Shown in pieces: positions 2,228-29,576 of a stretch of DNA of 56,022 bases (positions within the stretch are counted from its first letter, which is position 1; the number at the start of each line of letters is the position of its first letter). The stretch comes from a virus (Duplodnaviria; Heunggongvirae; Uroviricota; Caudoviricetes), in the IMG/VR virus record IMGVR_UViG_2534681672_000003, positions 1 to 56,022 of that record, one strand, 5' to 3'. A program made the position numbers and the translations under genes. Under the pieces are notes generated by a model. It searched no databases, was not told where the DNA came from, and saw only the letters and a list, made by a program, of their open reading frames with translations.

Positions 2228-2236
2228 TTTTCTTCC

Positions 2237-2518: not shown

Positions 2519-4914
2519 TTAATACTCTCCCCCATTTGCGCATCAGTTAATTCTTTATGCCAGAGACGAAGATTTCTCAAATGGCCGAATAGATGACGAG
2601 TTCCCGATGTGGCTTGACCTCCAATTCGAATAAAGGTCCGTGTTTTTACGCCCGTCCACTCCGTTTTCATAGTTTTAGTAGCCTCACCGTTAGAAACTAC
2701 TCGTTTAGTACCATCAGAATAAATATTAAAACCACCAATGAATTTTCGAACATCAGTTCGACCAGCAAACACACTAGAAACGTAAGTACTTGTCGACGCT
2801 TTATAAGTTTGTATATAAAGCTGACCGTAACATTTCTCAGTTGTGTTAAAAGCGTATGTAATTGACTCAATAGGTGGCACACCAGAAAAATCAAAAATAC
2901 GCGGTGCTACATTAGGAGGAATATCGCCCCAATTTCTATTGACCTCGACAAGACACGTAAGCGGTCTATTATAGATATTATTTTCAGTTGGGATCGTCAC
3001 CATATCACTGGAGCGGGTTGCGGGTGCAGTTGTCGTAATAACAAAAGATGAAGCACATCCGCCGTTTTCAAATTGTGGTGTTGCAAGGTAAATATAATCT
3101 CCCGCTTCAGTTATACCACCTTTTTTCGGCGCATACTGAATCATTGCGCCAATTAAGGCTTCACCTTCAACAGCTTCTATAGTTGCCTCATAGAAAATCC
3201 ACCCTGTAACCGGATCTTTAGTTGCAGTAGCTGCTATTCTATTGGCTGCTCCGCCAGTTTTTTCTATTATCAGAGTTCCGAAAGTTAAATAAGCATCTCC
3301 TAAAAATGTATAAACCGACCCATCGTATTTTTCAAAACGCAAACGACAACGAAGACCATCAGGAGCTTTAACCCTGCATGAAACAGTGCAATACTTATTA
3401 TCGCCACTAACATCAATCCCCCGGGATGCACTGCATGTATGCAGACTAAGTGCAGATGATTGTCCTGTCATATTATCTTTTGTTCGCATTTTGGCATATG
3501 AAAAACCAAATTCATCAACACCATTATTAGTTTTATCGATATTGCTGGTACTCGTCCATTCAGCGGGAGTATTGGATTTAACAAAATAGTTAGTGCGCTG
3601 TCCTTCAATCAATAAACCTTCTTTTTCAAATCGTGGCTCATCAATTTTAGCAACACTAAATACGCCTGATTTATTGATATATGTGGCAGTTGATGCGCGT
3701 TTAAACTTAACAACCTTGTCGCCAGGCATCGTTATTTCATCATCACCAATAACAATTTTTTTATATGACGGCGAAAAGCCCGTAATCATATCCAGTGAAT
3801 CGTTAAACGGTATCCACACATCAGGCAGTGGCTGTAAGACATATTTATACGGCTCTGCTGCCTGACTTGCATACTCTCTGGCTGCGTCTTCACTTGCTTT
3901 AGCTGCTGTCTGGCTTGCTGCCGATGCTTTCGCCGAGTTCGCCGCTGCAGTCTCGCTTGTCTTTGCATTGGTTTCACTGGTTTTTGCCGCTTTTTGACTG
4001 TTGGCTGATGCAGTGGCAGAAGCAGCCGCCGCGCTTGCAGAACCAGCTGCCGCGCTCTCGCTTTGGGCTGCTGCAACCTGGCTGTTTTTCGCCGCAGTTT
4101 CGCTGGCTTTGGCATTCGTTTCGCTGGTCTTCGCTGCCGTCTGGCTGGACTTTGCGTTAGTTTCACTCGTCTTCGCAGCTTTCTGGCTGTTAGCCGCAGC
4201 AGTTGCTGATCCAGCTGCTGAAGTCGCAGAACCGGCTGCCGCGCTCTCGCTTTGGGCTGCTGCAACCTGGCTGTTTTTTGCCGCAGTTTCACTGGCTTTG
4301 GCATTCGTTTCGCTGGTTTTCGCTGCCGTCTGGCTGGACTTTGCGTTGGTTTCGCTCGTCTTTGCGGCTGTCTCGCTATTTTTCGCGTTGGTTTCTGATT
4401 TTTTGGCTGCTGTCGCGGAGTTTGCCGATGCAGTCTTTGAGGTCGCTGCCGCCTGTGCACTATTAGCTGCATTCGTTTCTGAGGTTTTCGCCGCGTTCTT
4501 TGATGATGCCGCTGCAGTTTCGGATTTCTTTGCCGCCGCTGCGCTCTGAGAGGCGGCTTCGGCGTTGCGTGCCACTTCTTCCACCATTGCCTCAAAACGA
4601 CGCAATGCCTCCGGCATGACATCATCTTCCGTCATGGCACCGAGAAAATCATTCAGCGTACCTGGTCTGGAGCCTTCATAGACGGTAATGGTCCCGGCAT
4701 GTGAAGGCGGAAAACCTTCAACCAGCAGGGTGACGCTGTACTGGCCATACTCAACATCCATGCTGTAACGTCCGGCTTCATCCGGATTTTCAGAAGCCAC
4801 CGTGTTCACCAGTACCGTGGTGCTGTTACGCTTTGCCTTCAGTTGAATAGTGCAGTTCTGTATTGGTTTTCCCGCACCATCTTTCAGCACACCTGAGATT
4901 TTTACTGCTGCCAT
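2515..4914 (-). CDS. stf: side tail fibre protein (lambda Stf-like N-terminus, divergent C-terminus)
   Basis: The N-terminus MAAVKISGVLKDGAGKPIQNCTIQLKAKRNSTTV... is collinear with lambda Stf. The ATG at 4914 follows a GGAG ribosome-binding site. The middle of the protein is an Ala/Ser/Thr/Lys-rich repeat. Confidence 0.85.
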   Translation of the reverse strand: MAAVKISGVLKDGAGKPIQNCTIQLKAKRNSTTVLVNTVASENPDEAGRYSMDVEYGQYSVTLLVEGFPPSHAGTITVYEGSRPGTLNDFLGAMTEDDVMPEALRRFEAMVEEVARNAEAASQSAAAAKKSETAAASSKNAAKTSETNAANSAQAAATSKTASANSATAAKKSETNAKNSETAAKTSETNAKSSQTAAKTSETNAKASETAAKNSQVAAAQSESAAAGSATSAAGSATAAANSQKAAKTSETNAKSSQTAAKTSETNAKASETAAKNSQVAAAQSESAAAGSASAAAASATASANSQKAAKTSETNAKTSETAAANSAKASAASQTAAKASEDAAREYASQAAEPYKYVLQPLPDVWIPFNDSLDMITGFSPSYKKIVIGDDEITMPGDKVVKFKRASTATYINKSGVFSVAKIDEPRFEKEGLLIEGQRTNYFVKSNTPAEWTSTSNIDKTNNGVDEFGFSYAKMRTKDNMTGQSSALSLHTCSASRGIDVSGDNKYCTVSCRVKAPDGLRCRLRFEKYDGSVYTFLGDAYLTFGTLIIEKTGGAANRIAATATKDPVTGWIFYEATIEAVEGEALIGAMIQYAPKKGGITEAGDYIYLATPQFENGGCASSFVITTTAPATRSSDMVTIPTENNIYNRPLTCLVEVNRNWGDIPPNVAPRIFDFSGVPPIESITYAFNTTEKCYGQLYIQTYKASTSTYVSSVFAGRTDVRKFIGGFNIYSDGTKRVVSNGEATKTMKTEWTGVKTRTFIRIGGQATSGTRHLFGHLRNLRLWHKELTDAQMGESIK
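3998..4370. repeat. about two tandem copies of a 189-bp (63-codon) unit inside stf
   Basis: GCAGAACC(A/G)GCTGCCGCGCTCTCGCTTTGGGCTGCTGCAACCTGG recurs at 4037 and 4226. The protein segment AAKTSETNAKSSQTAAKTSETNAKASETAAKNSQVAAAQSESAAAGSA is repeated. Confidence 0.8.
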
Positions 4915-17352: not shown

Positions 17353-18143
17353 TTACGCCAGTTGTACGGACACGAACTCATCAGGGTCAGCCAGCAGCAT
17401 CAGCGGTGCTGACTGAATCATGGTGAACTCACGCGCCGGATCGCCGGTGGTCACCCAGTTTTTCGGGTAGCGGGCAGAGGCGTTAATGCCTTCGCGCTGT
17501 GCGTCCGCATCCTGAATGCAGCCATAGGTGCGCAGACCGCGTGCCTGAGTGTTCCCCAGCACCATCGTGTTGTCCGGCAGGAAGTTCTTTTTGACGCCGT
17601 TTTCCACGTACTGTCCGGAATACACGACGATGGCCACATCGCCATACATTCCCTTATAGGACACCGCTTTGCCCAGGTCTTTTACCGCTGTCTCCAGCTC
17701 GGAATGAGAGCCGCGACGGGTATCCAGCTTCTCCCTGACGGCTTTGAAAGAACGGAACAGCGCCCAGCCTTTCGGATCAAACACGATGATATTCACCACA
17801 CCGCTGGCGTTCAGCGCGTAGGCTTCGATATCGTCTGTCGGGTCATACGTGGACTTGTCACGCTTGCTCCACTCCGTGCCGCCGGACTGCGTGATGTTAT
17901 TCGCCTCACTGCGGCCCATATCCACCTCAACCGGATCGAAGGCTTCACCGGTCATGGTGTATTTGCCCTTAAGCACGGCAGAAACTGCCTGCATCTCTTC
18001 GACCTGAGCAATGGCCAGCTCTTCGTCACGCATGTTCTGCATGATGATGCGACGGCGGCGGTAAGTCGGGTCCGCCAGATTCTGCGGATCTTCATCCGGC
18101 AGGCGACGCAGGGTCATCTGCGGATTCACCTCATGCTTCGGCT
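17353..18143 (-). pseudogene. E: major capsid protein E, 3' part (codons ~79-341), separated from its 5' part by the insertion
   Basis: The minus strand reads (K)PKHEVNPQMTLRRLPDEDPQNLADP...EFVSVQLA, collinear with the lambda gpE C-terminus. No start codon or ribosome-binding site is left at the break. Confidence 0.95.
18134..18143. repeat. left copy of the 10-bp direct repeat (att core) TGCTTCGGCT
   Basis: Identical to 29567-29576. It lies exactly where E homology stops. Confidence 0.9.
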
Positions 18144-18277
18144 ACATGAGTCAAATATGAAAGGATGTGAATGATTTGATTACGTTTTAGCTATAGAATT
18201 GAAATGGAAAATCCTTGAATGCAATACAACGTGCAATACATGGATGAAAACCATCACTCATTTAACAAGAGGAATCT

Positions 18278-19183
18278 ATGCGCTCACCCAACAGAATGCA
18301 TGAACGCTCAACATTTTATAAGTATATGTCGTTGAATACCGCGAAGATTGTTCTTGATTCATGCAGCCTTAGATGGAGTTCTCCGGTCCTATTTAATGAC
18401 CCTTTTGATGTTCCAAGAGAAGTTATGCCTGGTATTAACGAAATTAATATTGGCAAAGCTTTAGCCCGCAAGTTAATAGCGGAGTTGATTACCCCCAGAG
18501 AAGACATACAAAATTTAAACCCTAGAATTAGAACAATGCTAAGTGATTTCCAAAAGTCATTTCCTTTAGGCATACCCGCAGGATTAATTGAAAGATTTCA
18601 AGAAATGGTAAACATTCCACCAGTTGGGATTGGCGCTCCTGCGGCAATACAAGAAATGAAAGATGTCTGGCGAGGAATGCTTAATAACAGAAGGATTTTG
18701 TGTTTATCTGAGAGCCCTATAATCACTCCTATGTGGAATCACTATGCCGATAAATATAAAGGTATAGTTATCGAATTTGATTGTGTAGACTTTCTGGATA
18801 GCGCTTGGTTAATAGCCAAACCTATGAAATACACAGATGAAATGCCTCTAACTCACACTGCTGAAGGGATGGCCGAGTTGCTTTTCATGCCAGACAATAA
18901 GTCAATTGAATATATCAATAATGAGATAATATTCATAAAAACAGAAGAATGGGCATATGAAAGAGAGTGGAGAATTTCAACCTACGCTAGGCCAAATAGC
19001 ACTGGTCAATATAGCGACTTAAAATTTCACCCTTTTGAGTTAAAATCTGTAATACTTGGTCCTCTTTTTGATGCCAGCGAGTTCGATGAAGTCGCATCAC
19101 TAGTTAAGATGTATCCAAGAGCGAAATTATTTAAAAGTTCATTTGGGAACGACAGAAAAATATCCATAGTACCACTACCTTAA
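18278..19183 (+). CDS. cargo protein with a DUF2971-like N-terminal signature
   Basis: 301-aa ORF with a ribosome-binding site AAGAGG. FYKYMSLNTAKIVLDSCSLRWSSPVLFNDPFD resembles the DUF2971 family signature, by recall. The gene is AT-rich, opposes the core genes, and has its own terminator. Confidence 0.55.
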   Translation: MRSPNRMHERSTFYKYMSLNTAKIVLDSCSLRWSSPVLFNDPFDVPREVMPGINEINIGKALARKLIAELITPREDIQNLNPRIRTMLSDFQKSFPLGIPAGLIERFQEMVNIPPVGIGAPAAIQEMKDVWRGMLNNRRILCLSESPIITPMWNHYADKYKGIVIEFDCVDFLDSAWLIAKPMKYTDEMPLTHTAEGMAELLFMPDNKSIEYINNEIIFIKTEEWAYEREWRISTYARPNSTGQYSDLKFHPFELKSVILGPLFDASEFDEVASLVKMYPRAKLFKSSFGNDRKISIVPLP

Positions 19184-19213
19184 AAGGTCAAATGCTTTTG
19201 ACAAATAAAATCT

Positions 19214-19239
19214 ATCGCCAGTTTTACTGGCGACTTTTA
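19214..19239. terminator. hairpin plus T-run between the convergent cargo and Nu1-like genes
   Basis: TCGCCAG-TTTTA-CTGGCGA followed by CTTTT. Confidence 0.6.
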
Positions 19240-19289
19240 AGCAACAAAGAACCACCTAAGCACTCTTCCTACCTATGGTTTCATTTGTT

Positions 19290-19841
19290 TTAACTTCGCT
19301 GATTATCCTTGATATACCTTTCAGCCATATCTGGAATGTTATCTGAGATCTGGTAAGCTCGAATAAATGCTTTACTGACCTCCATCTTAATGAAGTCCTG
19401 ATACCGTTTTCCCATGCCAGGAAACTGTCGACAGATCGCAAGTGGAAGACTATCAATGATTGCTCCAACTTCCCCAGTTAATTTCGACAAGGCATAAGTC
19501 GCAAATGCAGTGTCAATTACCTCACCTGTTTCGCTGGCATTCTTCAGTTCCTGTGCGTCGGCCTGCGCACGCGTAAGTCGATGGCGTTCATACTCAATAG
19601 TCCCTGGCAGGAGATCTGCCTCGCTGGCCTGCCGCAGTTCTTCAACCTCCCGGCGCAGCTTTTCGTTCTCAATTTCAGCATCCCTTTCGGCATACCATTT
19701 TATGACGGCGGCAGAGTCATAAAGCACCTCATTACCCTTGCCACCGCCTCGCAGAACGGGCATTCCCTGCTCCTGCTAGTTCTGAATGGTACGGATACTC
19801 GCACCGAAAATGTCAGCCAGCTGCTTTTTGTTGGCTTCCAT
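19290..19841 (-). pseudogene. Nu1-like small terminase gene with an in-frame TAG at codon 22
   Basis: MEANKKQLADIFGASIRTIQN*QEQGMPVLRGGGKGNEVLYDS... The first ~100 codons are almost identical to the resident Nu1, and the C-terminal ~80 codons are divergent. The ORF track picks up only from M27 (19763). Confidence 0.8.
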
Positions 19842-20085
19842 TGTTCATTCCACGGACAAAACCAGAGAAAGGAAACGACAGAGGCCAAAAAGCCTGTTTT
19901 TAGCACCTGTCGTTTCCTTTCTTTTTAGGGGGTGTTTTTAATAAAAACATTAAGTTACGGCGAAGAAGAACGGAAACGCCTTAAACAGGAAAATTTTCAC
20001 AAATAGCGAAAAACTGCGCGCCTGACGCCCCGTAGCCTGTCAGATCGCCGGAAAGGACCCGCCAGCCAGAGCGGGCCCTAATTTC
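19842..20085 (-). other. satellite cos region (cosB-cosN-cosQ-like); predicted cosN 12-mer at 20019-20030
   Basis: Collinear, without indels, with the resident cos at 35829-36048. The 12-mer CGCCTGACGCCC replaces AGGTCGCCGCCC. Confidence 0.75.
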
Positions 20086-20086
20086 A

Positions 20087-20470
20087 TCAACCAATCAGCT
20101 TATAGCGACCATCCCGTGCATTGCGGCGTACACGCTCAATCTTGAGGCATAGCGCCGCATCTGGCTTTTTTGGGACAGGTACGCGGCAATATTCAGAAGC
20201 GCGAGGAATATTATTTATCCAGTCGATCACTTCACTTAAATACCAGGCCTTACGCCCTTCCGTAACCTGCACACGCTCCGGGAACTCTCCACTAGCCTCA
20301 AGGTTTAGCAGTGTACGACGACTCAGGGTTGTAATTTCCATCACCTGATTCATATCAACAAGGCGCTCGCTTAAACACATTTTGTCAGCGATAGCTTTTA
20401 ATTCCTCTACAGCTGGATTCGGGTACATCATTTCGGCAATTGGCTTAAGGTCATTGTAATCATTCTGCAT
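20087..20470 (-). CDS. AlpA/MerR-superfamily HTH protein with N- and C-terminal extensions
   Basis: 127-aa ORF. The core MEITTLSRRTLLNLEASGEFPERVQVTEGRKAWYLSEVIDWI fits the AlpA-family pattern. A GGGGGA ribosome-binding site is present, and the gene is tightly coupled behind the D-like gene. Confidence 0.6.
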   Translation of the reverse strand: MQNDYNDLKPIAEMMYPNPAVEELKAIADKMCLSERLVDMNQVMEITTLSRRTLLNLEASGEFPERVQVTEGRKAWYLSEVIDWINNIPRASEYCRVPVPKKPDAALCLKIERVRRNARDGRYKLIG

Positions 20471-20481
20471 TGTATCCCCCT

Positions 20482-20823
20482 TTACACACGAGCCAGCGGC
20501 TGAACAGAAATACCTGAGCCAACAAACGCTGCAACCTTTACTGACAGTTCTTTAACAGACTCAGGCCAGTTCAGAGCATCAACATTTAAGACACCTGTCT
20601 TATAGACCTGAGCCTGTGTTTTTTTCGCGGTGTCGATTTGTACAGCGGAAACATAAACCGCTTTACCTACGCTCGAACCATCCCATACCACCAGTGCACC
20701 TGTTGCATCTTCCTGCATCAGTGGCGTAAATGCAGGAATTACCCCTTTATTAGCTGAAAATATCCCCAGCGTAGTCACCAGTGCTTCAGTGCCAGCCATG
20801 AGTTCAGTGTAATGAGTAGCCAT
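20482..20823 (-). CDS. head decoration protein, lambda gpD-like
   Basis: 113-aa ORF. It aligns by eye with gpD at TPLM..LV.WDG..., YK.G..., WPE... and AF.G..IS. Confidence 0.65.
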   Translation of the reverse strand: MATHYTELMAGTEALVTTLGIFSANKGVIPAFTPLMQEDATGALVVWDGSSVGKAVYVSAVQIDTAKKTQAQVYKTGVLNVDALNWPESVKELSVKVAAFVGSGISVQPLARV

Positions 20824-20832
20824 TGCTCCCCC

Positions 20833-21873
20833 TTAGCCAATGCGAACGGTAACAAAACGATTGATGCGGGCCGGTATTGGCTGTGGTGCTGAATGTGTCT
20901 GCACATATTCAATAGCCGGATCACCAGGCACAATATAGTTTTTCGGTGCAAGTTCGGCTTTAGTCAGCCCCATTCGGATTAGCTCCGGATCCTGAATACC
21001 GCCATAGGCGACAATCCCCTGAAGAGCCGTATTGCCAAGCACCATCAAATCAGGATCAAGGAAATGTTTTTCTGTTCCGTCCTCGTCGGTATAACGCCCG
21101 CTGTAAACAACAATCGCAACATCGCCCATATACCCTTTAAAACTCACCGAATCACCAAGGTCTTTAAGGGCCGTTTCCAGTTCGGAATTAGAACCACGAC
21201 GGGTATCCAAAGCCTCTTTTATCGCTCTGAATGAACGGTATTTCTTCCATACATTACCACCCATAATGATGATATTAGTGACGCCCTCACTAAATTCTGC
21301 GTAGCTCTCAATATCATCATTTGGATCAAAAGTTTCTTTATCCTTACCTGACCACTCAGTACCGCCAGACTGAGTGATGATATTTTGTGGTTTTATATTC
21401 CAGTCCAGCTCATAACGTTCAATACCATCGCCCTCAATGATATTTTTCCCCGTTGTGATAGCCTGAACAGCAAGCCATTCAATACGTGCACGAATAGCTT
21501 TAGCCTGATTTACAATCGCCTGTTTAACTTTAATATTACGCGCCCCAAAAGCATTGTATTGCTCAGGTGACACACCAGCAGGGCGCACAGCTAACTTATT
21601 TGGATCAATGCTGCTTTTCGGCTTCATATAACCTGGACGAATTGTTTTTGATTCGTATCCCTCATCTCGTGAAACTTTACTGCCCACCATAGGAGAGCAA
21701 AACGCCGCGATCGGGATATTTGGATCGTCGATCGTATCAAGAATAATGTCTCTCGATTCAAACATTACCGAGCGAGTGAAAAACAAACTGGTAAACAACG
21801 CATTTAATTTTTTTTGTACATCTACAGCATTAACCACCTGTACAAGCTGAGTAGGCGAATATAAATCAACCAT
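20833..21873 (-). CDS. major capsid protein, lambda gpE-like (satellite-encoded)
   Basis: 346 aa from MVDLYSPTQLVQVV. Conserved blocks are QSGGTEWS..DK.T.DP.DDIE.YA and LDTRRGSNSELETA.KDLG..VS.KG..GDVAIVVYSG. AAGAGG lies upstream of the ATG at 21873. Confidence 0.85.
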   Translation of the reverse strand: MVDLYSPTQLVQVVNAVDVQKKLNALFTSLFFTRSVMFESRDIILDTIDDPNIPIAAFCSPMVGSKVSRDEGYESKTIRPGYMKPKSSIDPNKLAVRPAGVSPEQYNAFGARNIKVKQAIVNQAKAIRARIEWLAVQAITTGKNIIEGDGIERYELDWNIKPQNIITQSGGTEWSGKDKETFDPNDDIESYAEFSEGVTNIIIMGGNVWKKYRSFRAIKEALDTRRGSNSELETALKDLGDSVSFKGYMGDVAIVVYSGRYTDEDGTEKHFLDPDLMVLGNTALQGIVAYGGIQDPELIRMGLTKAELAPKNYIVPGDPAIEYVQTHSAPQPIPARINRFVTVRIG

Positions 21874-22069
21874 ACGCATCCTCTTTGCATTCATTAAAAA
21901 TAATTGTGGATATATGCTATCACCGATATTTGTCATGCGAACACATGCAACCGAGTGCAATGTTGTATAAAGTTTTGGGGTGACAACTTCAGTGCGGACA
22001 ATTAGTGTTAATATCTTCACTCCCTTTGGTCGGGATTTATGTAGCATGCAGGAAAATTTATTTTTTCCG

Positions 22070-22790
22070 GCCTTTTTGTGCACAGAAAACCCCCAGCTAG
22101 GCTGGGGGTTCCGGAAAGCTTTCAGCTTTGAGCCAGTTATTAAAACCCCTTTTGATTTGTTAAAACACTTTGCGGTCTGGCAACTGCAAGTGTCAAACAA
22201 GAAATCAAAAGGGGGTCCCAATGGGGAACGAAAAGAGCTTAGCGCACACCCGATGGAACTGTAAATATCACATAGTTTTTGCGCCAAAATACCGAAGACA
22301 GGTGTTCTACAGAGAGAAGCGTAGAGCAATAGGCAGTATTTTGAGAAAGCTGTGTGAGTGGAAAAGCGTACGGATTCTGGAAGCTGAATGCTGTGCAGAT
22401 CATATCCATATGCTTGTGGAGATCCCGCCCAAAATGAGCGTATCCGGGTTTATGGGATATCTGAAAGGGAAAAGCAGTCTGATGCTTTACGAGCAGTTTG
22501 GTGATTTGAAATTCAAATACAGGAACAGGGAGTTCTGGTGCAGAGGGTACTACGTCGATACAGTGGGTAAGAACACGGCGAAGATACAGGATTACATAAA
22601 GCACCAGCTTGAAGAGGATAAAATGGGAGAGCAGTTATCGATTCCCTATCCGGGCAGCCCGTTTACGGGCCGTAAGTAACGAAGTTGGATGCAAATGTCA
22701 GATCGTGTGCGCCTGTTAGGGCGCGGCTGGTAAGAGAGCCTTATAGGCGCATTTGAAAAACCTCCGGCTATGCCGGAGGATATTTATTTT
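22070..22790 (+). mobile_element. IS200 (IS200/IS605 family) copy; ends approximate
   Basis: tnpA is flanked by the characteristic hairpins CCCCCAGCTAGGCTGGGGG (left) and CCTCCGGCTATGCCGGAGG (right). The size is about 0.7 kb. Confidence 0.7.
22221..22679 (+). CDS. tnpA: IS200 Y1 (HuH) transposase TnpA
   Basis: MGNEKSLAHTRWNCKYHIVFAPKYRRQVFY...HIHMLVEIPPKMSVSGFMGYLKGKSS... is the typical 152-aa IS200 TnpA. Confidence 0.92.
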   Translation: MGNEKSLAHTRWNCKYHIVFAPKYRRQVFYREKRRAIGSILRKLCEWKSVRILEAECCADHIHMLVEIPPKMSVSGFMGYLKGKSSLMLYEQFGDLKFKYRNREFWCRGYYVDTVGKNTAKIQDYIKHQLEEDKMGEQLSIPYPGSPFTGRK

Positions 22791-22801
22791 ATTGGCAATA
22801 T

Positions 22802-23251
22802 TTAAAACGGGATATCATCTCCCCATTGCTCATTATCTCCCACTGGTGGCTGGCTTCCTTGCTGATCTGCCTGTTGTTTTGCTCTGTTCAGTGCGTCAGT
22901 AGCCTGCCCCTGTTGGCCTTTATTGCCGCCCGGTCGCACCGATCGCGCACTGATTACGCTGTCTGCGATAACCTGCCAGCCCTGCCGCGTTTCGCCGTTC
23001 TGTCCAGTCCACTGGCTCATCTGCATGTTACCCGCCACGCTCAGGAGTTCGCCTTTGTGATGCTTTGCCAGCGCGTCGGCTTGTCTGCCAAACGCCAGGA
23101 CAGATAACCACATCGTCGCCTGACCGTCATCCGACTGACTGCAGGGCAGTGATACCGCCATACGCGCCAACGTCATGGGGGTGCCCTTGCTGGTCTGTTT
23201 TGTCTGCGGGTCGTCCACCGACCGCCCGTAAACTGATATTTGCGCCGTCAT
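22802..23251 (-). CDS. ssb: single-stranded DNA-binding protein
   Basis: 149-aa ORF with an OB-fold-like N-terminus and a Gly/Gln-rich linker. It ends with the canonical SSB tip ...DDIPF. Confidence 0.8.
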   Translation of the reverse strand: MTAQISVYGRSVDDPQTKQTSKGTPMTLARMAVSLPCSQSDDGQATMWLSVLAFGRQADALAKHHKGELLSVAGNMQMSQWTGQNGETRQGWQVIADSVISARSVRPGGNKGQQGQATDALNRAKQQADQQGSQPPVGDNEQWGDDIPF

Positions 23252-23493
23252 GCGGCCTGCTCTCCGGACTTAATATTGATTGTTGTCACTTCCTCCGCTT
23301 CAGCAATCTCCCGTTCGGTCAGAGTGGCAAAGTTTGCAGCCGCCGTTGTCATGAATGCGCTAATCAGTTCGGGATGTGCTTTCGCGTATCCTTCCCCGGC
23401 GTTGCGGTCGATGATTTTTATCGACACCCTTAACCAGTGTTCCGTCAAATCAAGGGCGTGCGATTGTGATTTTTTTGTGTGCTTCGCTGTCAT
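23248..23493 (-). CDS. hypothetical protein
   Basis: 81-aa ORF whose stop overlaps the ssb start by 4 nt. It lies directly downstream of the origin repeats. Confidence 0.5.
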   Translation of the reverse strand: MTAKHTKKSQSHALDLTEHWLRVSIKIIDRNAGEGYAKAHPELISAFMTTAAANFATLTEREIAEAEEVTTINIKSGEQAA

Positions 23494-23544
23494 AGGCTTT
23501 ATCTCACAGCAGTAAATTAAAATTTTTGCGTTTTAACCCTTCAC

Positions 23545-23767
23545 CTGTTCACCTTTTGATATTTTCTCTTTTAATTCATAATGTTAATGGGTGAACAGTT
23601 TCACAAAAACTATTCACCAACTGTTCACCACTGTTCACCCTTGAAGCTCAATAAACAATCAAAAAGGTGAACAGTGAATAGTTTGGTGAACAGTTCATAA
23701 ATAACTGTTCACCCTATAATATACTGATATAAAAGATATTTATGACAGGGTGAACAGTGGTGAACAG
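23545..23767. repeat. satellite replication origin: iterons GGTGAACAG / CTGTTCACC with AT-rich spacers
   Basis: The perfect 9-mer occurs 5 times forward (23590, 23666, 23685, 23749, 23759) and 4 times inverted (23545, 23621, 23631, 23705), plus degenerate copies. The region sits just after the replication gene. Confidence 0.8.
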
Positions 23768-23780
23768 TTATTCCATAAGT

Positions 23781-25601
23781 TTAATTTTTGCTATCGTCAT
23801 TAGTGACCGATACACATGATGGCATCCAGTCTTCTGATTCCTCCGTCAGGGTCACGTTTGAACGCAAACCGTGCTTCGTTTTCCGTTTCATATACTCCCT
23901 GCCATATTCCGCCATTGCCCCCGGCATATCTTTACCGAAGCGCGTCAGTGTTACAGGTTTACCAAACCCATGTGCCCTCATATAAGCCAGATAGGCATGA
24001 TAGAGATACCTGCGTGGGCTGAATGGCACAATTTCAGCATTACCCACTAACAGGCCATCACACATTACCGATGCCATGAGATAACCGCAGAAGTCCACCA
24101 GCGAATCCCCCTCTCGCTTTATCGCCAGTGCTTCTTCAGATTTCTGCTGCTCATATAACAGGCGTCTGGCTTCGTCCTGATCAGCAAACCTTGTAAGCAG
24201 ATGACGAATCACTACCGCCAGCTCACCTTCTATTTTTTCCGCCAGCATCGAATCGCGTTCGTTCTCCGGTACAACTTCCGAAAAATTGAATATCACCCGA
24301 CGACGTGAGATCCCCCCGCTGCGGTCACTGAATGACATGGCGTTATTGTTAACCGCCAGCACTACTGCCGGAATACGCGTTGAATAGGGGGCTTTGTGTT
24401 TCGGGTCAATTGCCACCTTGTCACCGCCTGTAATGGCCTTAATCCCTGCCCCATCACCAGCGTAGCGGGTCATATCCGGCATGATAATCAGCGAAAAGCC
24501 AACCACTAACGCACGTTCCCTTGCATCTTCCAGCGCCTTCATGCTTGCTGATACTGTATTAGCCTTACCCGCCAGCATGGTGCAAATCTCCGCCATCACA
24601 CTTTTACCACTTCCCCCCGGCCCTGTTACCTCAATGAATAACTGCCAGTCGTACCGGTTCGCCAGCACCATGAATAATGCCGCCAGTACGCGATCTGCCT
24701 TGCGGTCATTCTCAGCCACCGAACGGCGCAACCACTTCCAGAAATTCGGCGCATGTGTTGCCAGCGTTTCCCCCTCTGCTGGTGGGCTGAAAGGTAATTC
24801 ACTGGCAATTAACAACCAGTCGTTTTTGTTATGCTCCCGAAAGTTACCAGTTCTGGTATCAAATACCCCGTTACTGAATCCAATCAGGTTACGGGCTGTA
24901 TTCCCCATTACAGGCAAACTTAACTTCATGGTATCTACCGCCGATTTAATAGCGTTCTGCGAATAGCTGATCTCCGCATCAATGAAAATCTGCGCCATAG
25001 CACGCTGTAACTCTTTATCCTGAACCGGCTCCCATACAACGCCGTTGTAATGATGAACGGTGTCAGAGTCGGCATTGATTGCCAGTTCGCCGCCGTAATG
25101 TGCAAGGAGAACTTCACCGCGCTGGCTGGCCCCCATCTGATTCAACGCCAAAGATGAAGCACGCTCGTCATTTTTGCGCTCAGCCTTCTTCACTGGCAGT
25201 TCAATCACCAGACTTTCCCCATGCTCCGCTTCAGCTTTTAGGCCGACAAGGCGCGGAGTCCAGTCTTCAGGCTCTCGATCAACAAAGCTACGGTAACAAC
25301 GTGCTTCCTTTACGCCTGCAATAGCAAGTAATGTCGCAACCTTCGTCAGACTTTTCTCTGCAATCTTTCCGGCACGATAAACACGCACATAATGACGGCC
25401 TTCATCGATAATTTGCATATCATCCAGGTTTTCCAGTTGTTCCGTACCCAGAATGACTGGTGGTGTATCATCTGCTGCAATATGCTTACCTGCCCATTCA
25501 TTCCATTCTTTTGCATGGCTCCAGGCATCACTGCCAGCAAAAATGATGACTTCCGTCATTTTGTCGCGCGGTTGGTATTTTAAGTTCGGAGCACGTTTCA
25601 T
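23781..25601 (-). CDS. replication protein: D5/P4-alpha-type SF3 helicase (primase-helicase family)
   Basis: 606-aa ORF with the Walker A motif GPGGSGKS. The surrounding pattern is typical of the phage/plasmid primase P4-family C-terminal domain. The ATG overlaps the upstream stop (ATGA). Confidence 0.8.
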   Translation of the reverse strand: MKRAPNLKYQPRDKMTEVIIFAGSDAWSHAKEWNEWAGKHIAADDTPPVILGTEQLENLDDMQIIDEGRHYVRVYRAGKIAEKSLTKVATLLAIAGVKEARCYRSFVDREPEDWTPRLVGLKAEAEHGESLVIELPVKKAERKNDERASSLALNQMGASQRGEVLLAHYGGELAINADSDTVHHYNGVVWEPVQDKELQRAMAQIFIDAEISYSQNAIKSAVDTMKLSLPVMGNTARNLIGFSNGVFDTRTGNFREHNKNDWLLIASELPFSPPAEGETLATHAPNFWKWLRRSVAENDRKADRVLAALFMVLANRYDWQLFIEVTGPGGSGKSVMAEICTMLAGKANTVSASMKALEDARERALVVGFSLIIMPDMTRYAGDGAGIKAITGGDKVAIDPKHKAPYSTRIPAVVLAVNNNAMSFSDRSGGISRRRVIFNFSEVVPENERDSMLAEKIEGELAVVIRHLLTRFADQDEARRLLYEQQKSEEALAIKREGDSLVDFCGYLMASVMCDGLLVGNAEIVPFSPRRYLYHAYLAYMRAHGFGKPVTLTRFGKDMPGAMAEYGREYMKRKTKHGLRSNVTLTEESEDWMPSCVSVTNDDSKN

Positions 25602-25885
25602 TTGTTACCTCCGGCAACTAACATTGCCCGAATTTTACGGATATAGCCTGCGGCACGCCTCTGATTATCTGTCTTGCAATTTTTTACCAGAATGAAATCT
25701 CTTTCGAACTGCTGACGCGGCATAACACATTCAAAATCATAACCATCACGCAAATAAGAGACACGACGATCATCAACCGAAATAATCTTTACCCGATAGC
25801 CATAGCTGTCTTTGAAAATATCCCCAAGGCTGATTTTTGAATGAGTTTGACCGCTGGCAATAAAGCCAGAAAATTTATTTTTCAT
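25598..25885 (-). CDS. DUF4222-like small protein
   Basis: 95 aa. The pattern Y.V.II..D..RV.Y.R.G...ECVM.R..F..DF..V matches the family signature by recall. Confidence 0.5.
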   Translation of the reverse strand: MKNKFSGFIASGQTHSKISLGDIFKDSYGYRVKIISVDDRRVSYLRDGYDFECVMPRQQFERDFILVKNCKTDNQRRAAGYIRKIRAMLVAGGNK

Positions 25886-25888
25886 TTT

Positions 25889-26113
25889 TTATTCTCCGGT
25901 ATAGCTCTGGTCGTGTATTTTTATAGCTTCATCCAGCTCTTTGATGACAGGATCAAGTAACGTAATTAACGCTCCAGCTAAATTAGCATCCCGTTCATCG
26001 TGTTCCGCATTTGTTGTCCCATCAAGCCAGGTTGATAAGATTTCTCGCATATTTTTGCCACAAACGAGCGCGTTTTCAGCATGTGTCAGCACTTTAAAAT
26101 AAAGATCATTCAT
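25889..26113 (-). CDS. hypothetical protein
   Basis: 74-aa ORF in the leftward operon. No family was recognised. Confidence 0.45.
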   Translation of the reverse strand: MNDLYFKVLTHAENALVCGKNMREILSTWLDGTTNAEHDERDANLAGALITLLDPVIKELDEAIKIHDQSYTGE

Positions 26114-26471
26114 GGCACACCTCCTGACGAATACGGGCGGCGAATATCATCACGTAGCCAGTTGGGAATTGCTGGCGGGCTTCCTGTTCGCTGGCGGCCT
26201 CGATGTGTATTACGCGTGGTTGTGCGGTGCTCAGGGCGATAAAACGCCAGATGAAATTGTTTTCGCATTTCTGAATAAACAGCGTGTTTTCTTCACGCCC
26301 TTTCCAGAAAGCCGCAGTATAGCCCATCTCCTTAACCATCTTGCGGGCATCAACCAGCGTGTCAGCGGCAACATGTACCGTAGTTGCTCCATCTGCCATG
26401 CGGTCGTGGTGTAGTGCCAGAAAGGTGTATATAAATTTAGGGTGAGTTTGGGTATGCTGTGTTCCAGCCAT
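26106..26471 (-). CDS. Icd-like (host cell division inhibitor-like) protein
   Basis: Start set at MAGTQHTQTHPKF with a GAGG ribosome-binding site. FIWRFIALSTAQPRVIHIEAASEQEARQQFPTGYVMIFAARI fits the Icd-like pattern, and a weaker first repeat lies upstream. Confidence 0.55.
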   Translation of the reverse strand: MAGTQHTQTHPKFIYTFLALHHDRMADGATTVHVAADTLVDARKMVKEMGYTAAFWKGREENTLFIQKCENNFIWRFIALSTAQPRVIHIEAASEQEARQQFPTGYVMIFAARIRQEVCHE

Positions 26472-26557
26472 AATCGTTACCTCGTTTAACGGTTTGGTTA
26501 GAAGCCCGGTTAGTGTTCGCGCACTGCCGGGTTTCGTCGTTTTTATGAATCGATCAT

Positions 26558-26660
26558 TGTGAGATACATAGCGACCATGATGTGAGATATACATTATAAT
26601 GTGGTGATATACATTGCAAGTGTTTTTATATCTCACTTTTGTGTATAGTGATATACACAT
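26558..26660. promoter_or_regulatory. divergent control region with repeated operator-like motif GTGA(G/T)ATA(TA)CAT
   Basis: Copies lie at about 26558, 26580, 26600 and 26646, with an inverted copy at 26627. The region sits between the leftward icd-like operon and the rightward RHH-like gene. Confidence 0.6.
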
Positions 26661-26679
26661 AACAAATTGGTGATTAACT

Positions 26680-26982
26680 ATGTCTGTATACAAAAATGCA
26701 AAATCGCAAATGACAACGATCAGGGTTCCCCACGATGTTATGGAGGGCATGGAATCCGTAAAACTGGACGGCGAAAGCAACGCCGGATTCATAGTAACCG
26801 CCATGCGCGGTGAGATCGCCCGCCGCCAGGCAGAAGGAAGCGGAGAAAATCCCCTCGTGTCTTCACTGGATGCCTTAGCTAAGGTCGAACAAATCGGCAT
26901 CAAGGCAGCGGAGGAAATCGGGCAACTCGTAGCCGTCGCTCGTGAAGAACTCCAGCGGCGTAAAGCCAAAGAATCTGAATAA
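26680..26982 (+). CDS. putative ribbon-helix-helix (CopG/Arc-like) regulator
   Basis: TTIRVPHDVMEGMESV...NAGFIVTAMRGEIARR fits a strand-helix-helix layout. The true start may be the internal M at MTTIRVP. Confidence 0.45.
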   Translation: MSVYKNAKSQMTTIRVPHDVMEGMESVKLDGESNAGFIVTAMRGEIARRQAEGSGENPLVSSLDALAKVEQIGIKAAEEIGQLVAVAREELQRRKAKESE

Positions 26983-27332
26983 TTACTATCAGCGCCGTGA
27001 TGTGAGTAACTACGGCGCATTGCTATGTAAATACTGGCAATAAACAGAAAAGGTAGTTCTACTCCGAATAATTTTATCTGACACTACTCCTGAACTAACA
27101 TGCGCTTATCTTACAGGATATAAATATAGATCCATAAAATCACGATTAAATAAAGCCGCTCCAAACATAAACCACACCCAACGCTTAACAAGATAGCAAC
27201 AAACAGATAAATAACTTGCAGAAATATTTATCGCAAGGATTATCATTATTAATTACAAATCACTTTACCAAGTCATTCCCCTCTCTTATCATAAAGAGAA
27301 AGTAATAAATAAGTTAAGGGAGTTAGAATACT

Positions 27333-27869
27333 ATGAATCTAAAAAAAATAGCCACAAACATAAAAAACAAGATAATAGAAACATTCAATAAACTTATATT
27401 AGAGGCATCTAAAACCCCCACACAAGATGAAATTAAAATACTTGAGAGAAGAAGTAAAAAGTTTAATTACTCCTTTTTCTCATACGCAGTCACAGGAGCC
27501 ATAATGGTTTTTTGCTCTCAACCATTAATAAAATACGCAAACCCAATGCTTATTTTATTGAGTGGTCTGTTACTGTCTATCATCATTATCCTTCTCAGAA
27601 TGATTTATATTTCACAAGCGAATGCATCATGGACAACCAAAAAACGTTCACATGTACTAGTTCATTTTCTTTCTGCATGTTTCATAGCGTCAACATTGAC
27701 GTTGTTATATCAGGCTTACGATAATAACATCACACACAAATTGTACTGTAAAAATATACAACAACTTATTGAAAAAAGGATAGAAACAGAAAAAAATATC
27801 AGCATATTCAGTGGGATGCAATGCACCCCGGCATATGATTACTCTTTATTTGGATTTAATCTCTTATAA
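27333..27869 (+). CDS. cargo membrane protein (about 3 predicted TM helices)
   Basis: 178-aa ORF in a very AT-rich block. The hydrophobic stretches are AVTGAIMVFCSQPL, LILLSGLLLSIIIILL and LVHFLSACFIASTLTLL. Confidence 0.55.
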   Translation: MNLKKIATNIKNKIIETFNKLILEASKTPTQDEIKILERRSKKFNYSFFSYAVTGAIMVFCSQPLIKYANPMLILLSGLLLSIIIILLRMIYISQANASWTTKKRSHVLVHFLSACFIASTLTLLYQAYDNNITHKLYCKNIQQLIEKRIETEKNISIFSGMQCTPAYDYSLFGFNLL

Positions 27870-27938
27870 AGAATGTTATTACTGATTTGAGTGCAAATTC
27901 TCAAATCAGTAATTCATAATATTTTATTCTGAGATAAT

Positions 27939-28166
27939 TTAAACTACCCACTCACCTCGAATCCATGCCTGCACTTCTGAAAGACGATATGCAACAGCAG
28001 TGGAGCCAATCTTGATCCGCTTAGGAAATTTCCCTTCCTTCTCCAGCTTCCAGCGTGTGCTGTTCGCAAGAGTGGTTAGCTCCCGACATTCTTTCTCACG
28101 GATCATACGATCGATGTTAGGAATGTACTCCAAACCCTTTTTATCAACAATCGCCATTTTTTTCAT
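27939..28166 (-). CDS. alpA: AlpA-family transcriptional regulator/excisionase
   Basis: 75 aa. IREKECRELTTLANSTRWKLEKEGKFPKRIKIGSTAVAYRLSEVQAWI is a typical Phage_AlpA HTH. The gene lies directly downstream of int. Confidence 0.8.
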   Translation of the reverse strand: MKKMAIVDKKGLEYIPNIDRMIREKECRELTTLANSTRWKLEKEGKFPKRIKIGSTAVAYRLSEVQAWIRGEWVV

Positions 28167-28167
28167 G

Positions 28168-29403
28168 TTAACCAGCCTTTTGTTTGAGGATTATCACTTT
28201 TGAATCAGCACCTGCGATGCTATTGAGATATGTAGTCCAGAGTTCCAGAGCATCCAGTTTTTTAGCCATAAACTTACTCCGGTTGTAAACACCTGCCACG
28301 CCAGGTAGCGCATGGCCTAACAGTTGTTCTACTACATAAAATTCAACACCGAGATCACTTAGATGAGTAGATAGCGTTCTTCTAAGGTCGTGTAGTGACC
28401 ATTGTTTTTCATGGCCCAAACGTTTACCGATTTTCCCCCCAATCTTGCTTACGCTTTCTCTAATTCGCAGACTTCCCAGCACATAACCAGTATGTTTTGT
28501 CTCTTCGTGAACATCCGTTACCCACTGTCGTAGAATTTCAGGTACTGGTCTGACGATTTCAACACCAGTTTTTGAGTGATCTTTTGGTACCGTCCAAACC
28601 CAACTTTCGAGATCCCATTCGCTCCATTCAGATAATCGGGCTTCACTCATTCGACATCCAAATACTGTACAAAGCACAAACATTTTTCGCGTGTATTCAG
28701 ACATTAGTTTTAAATCAGGCTCGACAAAAATTGCCTTCCAGAGCTGGCCCAGTTCGGCTTCATCCAGAACCCGATCCCGCTTACCTGCAATCTGCCCCAC
28801 ATCACTCATGCGCAAATCCTTTAAAGCATCACATGTCGCGTACTGGCGTACCCGACAAAAACGAAGAGCTAATTTAGTGTCAGAAAAAACATACGCCGCC
28901 ATAACTGGTGCATTACGTTTAATTCGGTCAAAACAGTCCAGCCATTCATATAGGTGAGTGTCATTTACAGGCAAATGACCGATATAGGGAAAGATATGCT
29001 TTCGAAATCTGCCAAGCGTTACAGCATGAGTTTTACGACGCACCTTACAGTAATTTTCATACCAGTAATTTAGTGCATCCTCCACTGTGACCGGCTTTAA
29101 GCGTTCTTCAGCCTGAATCTTAATCTGGATACGCGGATCACGTTTGTCAGCCAACCAACCACGGCACTCGTCGCGCTTTTCCCTTGCCTGTTTGAGTGAC
29201 ATATCAGGATATTTACCCAACGTTAGCCAGACCGGAGCAGCCCGGCCACCTGCTAACCTGTAGAAGAAAACAAAGCTCACAGCCCCCTTGGTACTCACAC
29301 GAATAGAAAGCCCCTTTCCATCAGCAATGGTGATCTGCTTTTCTCTGGGTTTCCCCAGATATCCTTTAAGCGCTTTGTCGCTCAGTTTGTTCTCGCCAGC
29401 CAT
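28168..29403 (-). CDS. int: tyrosine integrase, P4-type (DUF4102 arm-binding N-terminus)
   Basis: Start at MAGENKLSDKALKGYLGK. The N-terminus has GKGLSIRVSTKGAVSFVFFYRL, and the catalytic region has HDLRRT...LGHALPGVAGVYNR. The gene abuts the right att copy. Confidence 0.9.
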   Translation of the reverse strand: MAGENKLSDKALKGYLGKPREKQITIADGKGLSIRVSTKGAVSFVFFYRLAGGRAAPVWLTLGKYPDMSLKQAREKRDECRGWLADKRDPRIQIKIQAEERLKPVTVEDALNYWYENYCKVRRKTHAVTLGRFRKHIFPYIGHLPVNDTHLYEWLDCFDRIKRNAPVMAAYVFSDTKLALRFCRVRQYATCDALKDLRMSDVGQIAGKRDRVLDEAELGQLWKAIFVEPDLKLMSEYTRKMFVLCTVFGCRMSEARLSEWSEWDLESWVWTVPKDHSKTGVEIVRPVPEILRQWVTDVHEETKHTGYVLGSLRIRESVSKIGGKIGKRLGHEKQWSLHDLRRTLSTHLSDLGVEFYVVEQLLGHALPGVAGVYNRSKFMAKKLDALELWTTYLNSIAGADSKVIILKQKAG

Positions 29404-29566
29404 TTTTAGCCCCAAAAAGCAATACAAGCTGCAATACAGAGATGATTGCAACACACAGATAACGAGGAAAATTCAGTGAAAGCGCCAGATAAACTTATTC
29501 TTTATTATCAAAAGATTAAGTGTAAAAACCAGCAACTACACGAAAGCCTCAGAAAGCCATGCTAAG

Positions 29567-29576
29567 TGCTTCGGCT
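29567..29576. repeat. right copy of the 10-bp direct repeat (att core) TGCTTCGGCT
   Basis: Identical to 18134-18143. E homology resumes here. Confidence 0.9.

What the first reader, a model, noticed from the sequence alone, without database searches (positions are those of the whole stretch)
18144..19240. AT-rich cargo gene with a DUF2971-like signature at the att-proximal end of the satellite (defence candidate)
The 301-aa ORF is oriented against all core satellite genes and has its own ribosome-binding site and terminator. It is visibly more AT-rich than its neighbours and sits between attL and the packaging module. That is the kind of position where P4-like and PICI satellites carry anti-phage cargo. 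Its N-terminus (FYKYMSL....L......LRWSSP..FNDPFD) resembles the DUF2971 family, by recall. I could assign no function.
Basis: inference. Interest (0 to 1): 0.55.

Follow-up and report, generated by a model that had tools for sequence, protein, structure and literature searches.

The report
DUF2971 defence-candidate cargo in embedded satellite
A real 301-residue gene sits in the swap-in cargo slot of a known type of phage satellite embedded in a prophage capsid gene. It encodes a predicted NAD-using ADP-ribosyltransferase-like protein, most likely an untested single-gene anti-phage defence, so it is a sensible but not surprising finding.

Summary
ORF 18278-19183 (+) is real: it has an RBS, a shared hairpin terminator, 38% GC against 44-57% around it, dN/dS 0.14 and about 300-aa homologues in many phyla.

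It is a Pfam DUF2971 protein and matches PADLOC candidate PDC-S31 (E 2.5e-32). PDC systems are untested "guilt-by-embedding" candidates.

The host element is a relative of the published helper-embedded PICI "11capE", inserted in the lambdoid capsid gene E.

Its integrase is in 176 of 5,426 complete E. coli genomes, and only 32-34 of them carry this gene. In the sampled relatives the same attL-proximal slot holds a TIR protein, a PD-T4-2-like DUF262+HEPN pair, an AbiJ-like protein or DUF3892. So this is variable cargo in a defence hotspot, not a core function.

A distant DUF2971 protein, Aristaios of Lactococcus, is a validated single-gene abortive-infection system.

Verdict: a new, untested member of a known kind. 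Mechanism, trigger and target are inferred. Interest is moderate to low.

The parts
18134..18143 (.). attL core (10-bp identity block TGCTTCGGCT) inside the prophage major capsid gene E
   Evidence: The only 10-mer shared by the two junction regions. Uninterrupted prophage capsid genes in other E. coli match the window up to 18143. A 10-bp identity block is described for HE-PICI 11capE (PMC10111431).
18220..18240 (+). Pair of TGCAATACA repeats, putative integrase arm-type sites. They lie 38 bp upstream of the cargo start codon.
   Evidence: The pair is conserved about 87 bp from the core in all capE HE-PICIs examined. It is the reverse complement of the published HE-PICI attP motif tgTGTATTGCantgTGTATTGCa (PMC10111431).
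18267..18273 (+). Shine-Dalgarno sequence AAGAGGA
   Evidence: Read directly from the sequence.
18278..19183 (+). DUF2971 / PDC-S31 gene, 301 aa. Predicted ADP-ribosyltransferase-fold protein.
19214..19234 (.). GC-rich hairpin between the convergent DUF2971 and terS genes. Likely a bidirectional terminator.
18160..19804 (.). Variable (swapped) segment relative to other capE HE-PICIs. It holds the cargo gene plus the 3' two-thirds of terS. Boundaries are approximate: left 18155-18177, right 19804-19913.
   Evidence: blastn of the window against L002, L012, L013 and L014.
19290..19841 (-). Satellite Nu1-like small terminase gene, convergent with the cargo. In this window it is interrupted by a TGG>TAG nonsense codon at 19776-19778.
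28168..29454 (-). Satellite tyrosine integrase (capE-targeting clade)
29567..29576 (.). attR core. The N-terminal 83 codons of prophage gene E follow on the - strand.

Best explanation
The gene is accessory cargo in the attL-proximal (3'-end) hotspot of a helper-embedded PICI satellite.

Its product is a stand-alone protein of about 300 aa with an ADP-ribosyltransferase fold, decorated by two large helical inserts. It most likely acts as a single-gene, abortive-infection-type anti-phage defence.

Proposed mechanism:
1. The protein is made in the lysogen from its own signals and is kept inactive.
2. Infection by a competing phage activates it. The helical inserts may sense the trigger.
3. It uses NAD+ to ADP-ribosylate a nucleic acid or a gene-expression factor.
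4. Phage gene expression stops. This protects the clonal population and, with it, the satellite and its helper prophage.

Shown here: the gene is real and under purifying selection; family membership; the ART-like fold; variable-cargo status; co-occurrence with defence genes.

Inferred: enzymatic activity, catalytic residues (K15, Y156, E228/E230), target, trigger and phenotype.
For: **1. Family**
- Pfam DUF2971 scores above the gathering threshold.
- PADLOC PDC-S31: E 2.5e-32 over positions 5-246 of a 259-position model.
- All 51 aligned homologues hit DUF2971.

**2. Fold**
- The AlphaFold2 model has pLDDT 94.6 and pTM 0.86.
- Below these come TreX, scabin, a diphtheria-toxin homologue, pertussis-type toxins and PARP15.
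- Two papers independently reached an ART assignment for DUF2971 (PMC12522546, PMC11381338).

**3. Conserved motifs where ART motifs are expected**
- Invariant residues include K15-Y16, M152-W153, Y156, and E228-x-E230-W231-R232.
- W..Y and ExE(W/F)R are shared with a DUF2971 protein that is only 22% identical. That protein has H where this one has K15.

**4. Hotspot**
- The integrase is in 176 genomes, and in 175 it lies next to a split capsid gene. The cargo is in only 32-34 of them, at >= 99.8% identity.
- The same slot elsewhere holds TIR, NsnA/PD-T4-2-like DUF262+HEPN, AbiJ-like/Abi_C, or DUF3892.
- PICIs are reported to carry immune systems at their 5' or 3' ends (stated in PMC11364771, citing Fillol-Salom et al. 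2022).

**5. Other contexts**
- A 56%-identical homologue in Enterobacter sits beside HEPN_AbiV, a YjhX toxin, a methyltransferase and an integrase.
- Neighbours of 30 distant homologues include mad2, SoFic, GajB, a DRT reverse transcriptase, AbiLi and type I/II RM genes.
- PDC systems were defined by being embedded in BREX, DISARM, type I RM or Hma loci (bioRxiv 10.1101/2024.01.29.577857).

**6. Precedent**
- Aristaios is a 316-aa single-gene DUF2971 protein that confers an abortive-infection phenotype. It blocks phage transcription and protein production (PMC11381338, PMC13064643, PMC12967558).

**7. Evolution and distribution**
- dN/dS is 0.14 against the Enterobacter copy.
- The distribution across phyla is patchy.
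- There are 642 clusters (at 50% identity) of mostly stand-alone ~300-aa proteins at E <= 1e-30.
Against: - No experiment exists for this protein or for PDC-S31.
- The canonical motif-I His/Arg is a Lys here, so catalytic competence is not assured.
- No sigma-70-like promoter was detected upstream.
- No antitoxin or partner gene is present, so how a toxic ART would be restrained is unexplained.
- The neighbourhood survey had no control set and is qualitative only.
Confidence: 0.65

Rival explanations
1. It is a satellite-to-helper interference or hijacking factor. The protein modifies a component of the helper lambdoid phage (or host RNA polymerase) to favour satellite packaging or timing, and is not a general defence.
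For: It lies next to the packaging module, and the swapped segment also carries the 3' part of terS. Phages use ARTs to reprogram hosts (T4 Alt/ModA/ModB; established knowledge). It matches PHROG 1762, a family from phage and prophage genomes.
Against: About 80% of satellites with the same integrase lack it, and unrelated defence genes replace it. Close homologues occur outside satellites, in chromosomal islands beside AbiV or RM genes and in phyla without this satellite. It is transcribed antisense to the satellite and late operon.
Confidence: 0.08
2. It is a selfish toxin or addiction-type module (or exclusion factor) that stabilises the satellite in the prophage, without protecting against phage.
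For: It has an ART toxin-like fold related to the DarT toxin. It sits at the edge of a mobile element. Neighbours elsewhere include toxin genes such as YjhX and SoFic.
Against: No antitoxin ORF lies between attL and terS. The only neighbours are att arm sites and a convergent terS. Most family members are stand-alone ~300-aa proteins. The slot's other occupants are defence systems.
Confidence: 0.08
3. It is an accessory gene unrelated to phage, such as a virulence or host-interaction effector or a stress-response ART, as proposed for some DUF2971 proteins in Legionella.
For: PMC12522546 predicts about 18% of DUF2971 proteins to be effectors and notes operons with peptidase C26 and iron permease. 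The carrier strains come from varied sources: clinical, commensal, animal and environmental.
Against: No secretion-related neighbours and no recognisable additional domain were found. The context is a defence hotspot. The wider distribution covers mostly free-living environmental bacteria.
Confidence: 0.06
4. It is a catalytically dead ART-fold protein that acts by binding, as a decoy or sensor, or it is an RNA-end-modifying enzyme like Tpt1 rather than an ADP-ribosylating toxin.
Against: Strict conservation of Y156 and E228-x-E230-W-R across distant subfamilies argues for retained catalysis. The Tpt1 N-terminal RNA-binding lobe has no counterpart: the Tpt1 chain matched is only the 120-residue C-terminal domain.
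Confidence: 0.1

Closest known systems
Aristaios (Lactococcus plasmid pUCCL641_199; Grafakou et al. 2024, PMC11381338)
   Different: Aristaios comes from a different phylum and a plasmid rather than a satellite. No direct sequence similarity was detected: no Lactococcus record appears among the listed tblastn plasmid hits, which is inconclusive. Aristaios has a proven Abi phenotype and blocks phage transcription and protein production. This protein is untested.
PADLOC phage defence candidate PDC-S31 (Payne et al. 2024 preprint, 10.1101/2024.01.29.577857)
   Same: There is a strong full-length HMM match (E 2.5e-32). Both are single-gene architectures, and both are found among defence genes.
   Different: PDC-S31 is only a prediction from 'guilt-by-embedding' in BREX, DISARM, type I RM or Hma loci. 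Here the context is a satellite hotspot, which is independent contextual support.
DarT of DarTG toxin-antitoxin / anti-phage systems
   Different: There is no sequence-profile similarity and no DarG macrodomain partner. Lys replaces the motif-I His. Two large helical inserts are present (residues ~55-137 and ~195-228). Membership is not supported.
PICI and P4 satellite defence hotspots (Fillol-Salom et al. 2022, cited in PMC11364771; Rousset et al. 2022, PMC9122126)
   Same: Variable anti-phage cargo sits at the end of the element next to att and cos, and differs between otherwise near-identical satellites.
   Different: Here the satellite is helper-embedded, inside prophage capsid gene E. As far as the searchable literature shows, the hotspot content of these HE-PICIs has not been described. 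PMC10111431 does not discuss cargo.
HE-PICI 11capE of E. coli NRG857c (Mageeney et al. 2023, PMC10111431)
   Same: The integrase is 99.5% identical in DNA (H233). The 10-bp att block in capsid gene E, the arm motif, the gene order and the element's own capsid/decoration genes are the same.
   Different: 11capE carries DUF262+HEPN (PD-T4-2-like) in the slot and lacks a full terS. This element carries DUF2971 plus a Nu1-like terS, which is nonsense-mutated in this copy.

Membership tests
Pfam DUF2971 (PF11185) | HMM score above the curated gathering threshold | tested here: met
   40 bits against a cutoff of 22, residues 152-233 covering model positions 1-89 of 89. All 51 aligned homologues also hit.
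PADLOC PDC-S31 | Match to the PDC-S31 HMMs | tested here: met
   PDLC04990 at E 2.5e-32 over 5-246 of 259 positions, plus four further PDC-S31 models.
PADLOC PDC-S31 | Single-gene system (no obligatory partner) | tested here: met
   No co-oriented ORF lies between attL and the convergent terS. Family members are mostly stand-alone ~300-aa proteins.
PADLOC PDC-S31 | Anti-phage activity | not testable with these tools
   The PDC systems are described as 145 untested candidates (10.1101/2024.01.29.577857).
Aristaios | DUF2971 domain in a single ~300-aa protein with an ART-like predicted fold | tested here: met
   compared with the description in PMC11381338.
Aristaios | Sequence relatedness to pUCCL641_199 beyond shared Pfam membership | tested here: inconclusive
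tblastn against plasmids listed no Lactococcus hit, but only the top genera are shown.
Aristaios | Abortive-infection phenotype and block of phage gene expression | not testable with these tools
   Requires experiments.
ADP-ribosyltransferase superfamily | ART core fold | tested here: met
ADP-ribosyltransferase superfamily | Catalytic motifs (H/R in motif I, Y or STS in motif II, E or ExE in motif III) correctly placed | tested here: inconclusive
   K15, Y156 and E228-x-E230 are invariant. No residue-level structural superposition could be obtained, and motif I is Lys.
ADP-ribosyltransferase superfamily | NAD+-dependent transferase activity | not testable with these tools
   Requires a biochemical assay.
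DarT / DarTG | Sequence membership in the DarT (DUF4433) family | tested here: not met
   hhalign of the family profile against three DarT sequences gave E 0.7 and probability 0.07%. No Pfam hit other than DUF2971 appeared.
DarT / DarTG | Adjacent DarG macrodomain antitoxin | tested here: not met
   No adjacent gene. The flanks are att arm sites and a convergent terS.
Helper-embedded PICI (capE type), as context | Integration inside, and co-oriented with, a prophage late gene; 10-bp identity block; tgTGTATTGCa x2 arm motif; int-alpA-pri gene set | tested here: met
   compared with PMC10111431.
Satellite defence hotspot | Different unrelated cargo at the same position in otherwise near-identical elements, including known defence genes | tested here: met
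   Five cargo types were seen in nine examined capE HE-PICIs: DUF2971, TIR, NsnA/PD-T4-2-like, AbiJ-like and DUF3892.

The most novel reading that the evidence does not exclude
The K-Y-ExE variant of DUF2971 may be a new class of nucleic-acid-directed ADP-ribosyltransferase. Its helical inserts would act as a built-in phage sensor.

Its placement could also give cis-regulated immunity. The gene is antisense to the helper's anti-terminated late transcription, directly behind the integrase arm sites. The defence would then be on in the lysogen and switched off by convergent helper late transcription, or by integrase binding, when the helper and satellite themselves go lytic.

All five cargo types seen in this slot share the antisense orientation.
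Probability: 0.12. Interest if true: 0.65.

Novelty: new member of a known kind. Interest (0 to 1): 0.35.

Why it matters
If confirmed, this would be the first tested member of PDC-S31, a widespread DUF2971 subfamily. The subfamily has 642 clusters (at 50% identity) at E <= 1e-30, and about 20,000 in the wider family.

It would link that subfamily to the Lactococcus system Aristaios, and it would give an E. coli-tractable model for working out what DUF2971 ART-like proteins modify and what triggers them.

It would also show that helper-embedded PICIs have the same exchangeable immune slot as other PICIs and P4. These elements occur in about 3% of complete E. coli genomes.

None of this overturns current ideas. 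It extends known patterns.

Tried and rejected
- **PDB sequence search** with the family profile found nothing relevant.
- **Foldseek** against the PDB and against BFVD gave no significant hits. DarT and Tpt1 appear only at E 0.4-2.3.
- **hhalign** of the family profile against three DarT sequences recovered from PDB alignments was not significant. DarT membership was therefore rejected.
- **NCBIfam** gave no family.
- **Phage collection tblastn** gave only a weak Pseudomonas phage hit.
- **Promoter scan** found no upstream sigma-70-like site.
- **Fillol-Salom 2022 (Cell)** is not held in the library, so its claim is cited second-hand from PMC11364771.
- **Cargo quantification.** A flanked DNA search meant to list the other contexts of the gene was swamped by prophage capsid hits. 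I relied instead on nine sampled loci plus genome counts.
- **Core satellite function** was considered and rejected, because the gene is present in only about 19% of elements with this integrase.
- **Toxin-antitoxin pair** was considered and rejected, because there is no partner ORF.

Full report
**1. The observation**

The window contains a 301-codon ORF at 18278-19183 on the + strand.
- An AAGAGGA ribosome-binding site lies 4 nt before the ATG.
- Thirty bases after the stop there is a GC-rich hairpin (19214-19234; -17.6 kcal/mol, z = -3.7). It sits between this gene and a convergent small-terminase gene, and it scores as an intrinsic terminator on the - strand.
- The CDS is 37.9% GC. The prophage DNA to the left is 57.4%, the neighbouring satellite genes 46.2% and the whole satellite 44.4%.
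- A 301-codon ORF in such AT-rich DNA is not a chance event, and the protein has hundreds of full-length homologues.
- dN/dS against the 85%-identical copy in an Enterobacter element is 0.14.
- RefSeq calls only 252 aa, starting at M50. This is almost certainly too short. The first residues, MRSPNR-H-R--F-KY, are conserved from position 1 in 51 diverse homologues, and residues K15, Y16, W33-S34-S35-P36, N40-D41-P42, D44, P46 and R47 are invariant.
- No convincing sigma-70 promoter was found upstream.

**2. The element that carries it**

The genes to the right, all on the - strand, are:
- a Nu1-like small terminase,
- an AlpA-type HTH regulator,
- a head-decoration protein,
- a lambda-E-like major capsid protein,
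- SSB,
- a D5/P4-alpha-type primase,
- an Icd-like protein,
- a tyrosine integrase.

The element is bounded by a 10-bp direct repeat, TGCTTCGGCT, at 18134-18143 and 29567-29576. [quoted passage not shown] Intact capsid genes in other strains match the window exactly up to 18143.

Pairs of TGCAATACA repeats lie just inside both ends (18220/18232 and 29419/29431).

All of this matches the published helper-embedded PICI (HE-PICI) "11capE" of E. coli NRG857c: a 10-bp identity block in capE, the attP motif tgTGTATTGCantgTGTATTGCa, and its own capsid gene (PMC10111431). The NRG857c element itself was retrieved as locus L012, and its integrase region is 99.5% identical. The satellite context is therefore already described. 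That paper does not discuss cargo.

**3. Cargo or core?**

- The integrase region occurs in 176 of 5,426 complete E. coli genomes. In 175 of them it lies next to a split capsid gene.
- The DUF2971 gene occurs in only 32-34 genomes, at >= 99.8% identity. In the 32 complete copies it lies next to the satellite terS.
- Against other capE HE-PICIs, homology breaks just inside attL (about 18155-18177) and resumes inside terS or the cos region (about 19804-19913).

In the nine examined elements the slot holds:

| Cargo in the attL slot | Loci |
|---|---|
| DUF2971 | window, L001 |
| 380-aa TIR protein | L002, L016 |
| DUF262/GmrSD_N + RiboL-PSP HEPN pair (matches PADLOC NsnA and PD-T4-2 A/B) | L012 |
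| Abi_C / AbiJ-like protein | L013, L015 |
| DUF3892 protein | L014, L017 |

In every case the gene immediately inside attL is on the + strand, antisense to the satellite operon.

An 88%-identical DUF2971 gene occupies the same slot in an Enterobacter sichuanensis HE-PICI.

Sister satellites that integrate elsewhere carry only a small hypothetical gene at that end. These integrate in a prophage portal gene, at tRNA-Pro, or between clpS and cspD.

This is the pattern of an exchangeable immune hotspot, already reported for the 5' and 3' ends of PICIs (PMC11364771, citing Fillol-Salom 2022) and for P4 (PMC9122126).

**4. What the protein is**

*Family assignment*
- Pfam assigns DUF2971: 40 bits against a cutoff of 22, residues 152-233.
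- PADLOC's best match is PDC-S31: E 2.5e-32, nearly full length.
- PHROGs gives family 1762, of unknown function. NCBIfam gives nothing.
- PDC systems are 145 untested candidates found because they are embedded within BREX, DISARM, type I RM or Hma loci (10.1101/2024.01.29.577857).

*Predicted structure*
- An AlphaFold2 model built on 51 homologues is confident: pLDDT 94.6, pTM 0.86.
- It shows a beta-sheet core interrupted by two helical inserts, at about 55-137 and 195-228.

*Limits of the ART link*
- Foldseek was not significant.
- A profile-profile comparison with DarT was negative.
- No PDB sequence relative exists.
- The ART assignment therefore rests on fold plus published analyses: PMC12522546 (DUF2971 as a modified H-Y-E clade with large helical inserts, a strictly conserved Tyr and an ExE motif) and PMC11381338.

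*Conserved motifs*
- The invariant residues fit that description: K15-Y16 in the first strand, M152-W153-x-x-Y156, and Y227-E228-x-E230-W231-R232.
- A second DUF2971 protein, only 22% identical, sits in the integrase-proximal slot of another capE HE-PICI. It shares W..Y..G and ExE(F/W)R, and it has 'FHYTD' where this protein has 'YKYMS'.
- Lys15 therefore replaces the canonical motif-I His.
- Mapping these residues onto the NAD+ pocket is inference. I could not obtain residue-level superpositions.

**5. Wider context**
- The subfamily is large and patchily distributed: 642, 6,160 and 20,281 clusters (at 50% identity) at E <= 1e-30, 1e-10 and 1e-3. Most are stand-alone proteins of about 300 aa.
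- Hits come from Proteobacteria, Verrucomicrobiota, Desulfobacterota, Nitrospirota, Gemmatimonadota, Planctomycetota and others.
- A 56%-identical Enterobacter hormaechei homologue lies beside HEPN_AbiV, a YjhX toxin, a methyltransferase and an integrase.
- Among 150 ORFs flanking 30 distant homologues, PADLOC families hit include mad2 (4), further PDC-S31 paralogues (4), SoFic (2), PDC-S04, PDC-S24, type I and II RM components, AbiLi, a DRT reverse transcriptase and GajB. Ordinary housekeeping genes are also present. This survey had no control and is only qualitative.

**6. Mechanism proposed**

The best-supported reading is a single-gene, abortive-infection-type defence carried by the satellite. 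An ART-fold enzyme would be held inactive until a competing phage infects. It would then use NAD+ to modify a nucleic acid or a gene-expression factor.

The closest structural neighbours (Tpt1, DarT, scabin) all act on nucleic acids. The only validated DUF2971 protein, Aristaios, blocks phage transcription and protein production and gives an Abi phenotype (PMC11381338, PMC13064643, PMC12967558).

The family, the fold, the hotspot and the selection are shown. The activity, target, trigger and phenotype are inferred.

Rivals are listed with their evidence: a helper-interference factor, an addiction toxin, a non-phage effector, and a non-catalytic or Tpt1-like function. Each is disfavoured mainly by three points: the gene's absence from most sister satellites, its replacement by bona fide defence genes, and its occurrence in chromosomal defence neighbourhoods far from any satellite.

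**7. Novelty and verdict**

Every layer has precedent:
- HE-PICIs (2023),
- immune cargo at PICI ends (2022),
- DUF2971 as a predicted ART (2024/2025),
- a validated DUF2971 defence (2024),
- PDC-S31 as a catalogued candidate (2024).

What is new is modest. This E. coli subfamily is untested. The capE HE-PICI attL slot is documented here as a defence hotspot with at least five alternative cargos. The RefSeq gene model is 49 codons too short, which would matter for anyone cloning it.

I rate it a new member of a known kind, with interest 0.35.

The most novel reading not excluded concerns orientation and position. The cargo is antisense to helper late transcription and directly behind the integrase arm sites. 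This could provide a cis-acting off-switch for immunity when helper and satellite go lytic, with the helical inserts acting as a built-in sensor. I give this a probability of about 0.12.

Noticed in passing
window 18134-29576: [quoted passage not shown] This is the published helper-embedded PICI configuration (11capE type, PMC10111431). The integrase is present in 176 of 5,426 complete E. coli genomes.
   Followed up: yes
window 19776-19778 (- strand), within terS 19290-19841: The satellite's Nu1-like small terminase has a TGG>TAG nonsense codon (W22*). The otherwise ~99%-identical element in strain 95-3322 (L001) has it intact. This copy may be packaging-defective.
   Followed up: yes
window 22078-22786 (tnpA ORF 22170-22679, +): A ~709-bp IS200/IS605-type insertion lies between the satellite capsid gene and SSB. 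It is absent from L001. It creates the artificially long 498-aa 'capsid' ORF at 20833-22329.
   Followed up: partly
window 27333-27869 (+): A second AT-rich accessory slot (GC 0.32) lies next to the integrase. It encodes a 178-aa protein with about three hydrophobic helices and no Pfam or PADLOC family. In sister elements this slot holds a different DUF2971 subfamily plus a SWIM protein (L002), HicB plus a hypothetical (L013), a 466-aa hypothetical (L014) or BRO-N (L003).
   Followed up: partly
window 19531-20062: The 5' part of the satellite terS and the upstream cos-like region are 93-95% identical to nohA/nohD regions of lambdoid prophages in about 4,100 E. coli genomes. The 3' (terminase-large-subunit-binding) part is divergent and belongs to the swapped cargo segment. 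The founding 11capE element keeps only a 64-aa N-terminal remnant.
   Followed up: partly
L001 14296-15054 (= window 18425-19183): The RefSeq/PGAP gene model WP_001117802.1 starts at Met50 and omits 49 conserved N-terminal residues, including the putative ART motif I.
   Followed up: yes
attL slots of L002, L012-L017 and the window: In all five cargo types, the gene immediately inside attL is on the strand antisense to the satellite operon and helper late operon, and it starts shortly after the conserved GCAATACA-N4-GCAATACA arm-site pair.
   Followed up: partly
L018-L053 (distant homologue loci): Among 150 ORFs flanking 30 distant homologues, 4 are further PDC-S31 paralogues and 4 match mad2 (MADS system).
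   Followed up: no
L003 and L010 (E. coli CFSAN018748, AF58): Sister satellites with near-identical capsid/decoration/HTH genes are inserted in the prophage portal gene instead of the capsid gene. In AF58 the satellite is truncated at SSB and fused to the portal fragment.
   Followed up: no
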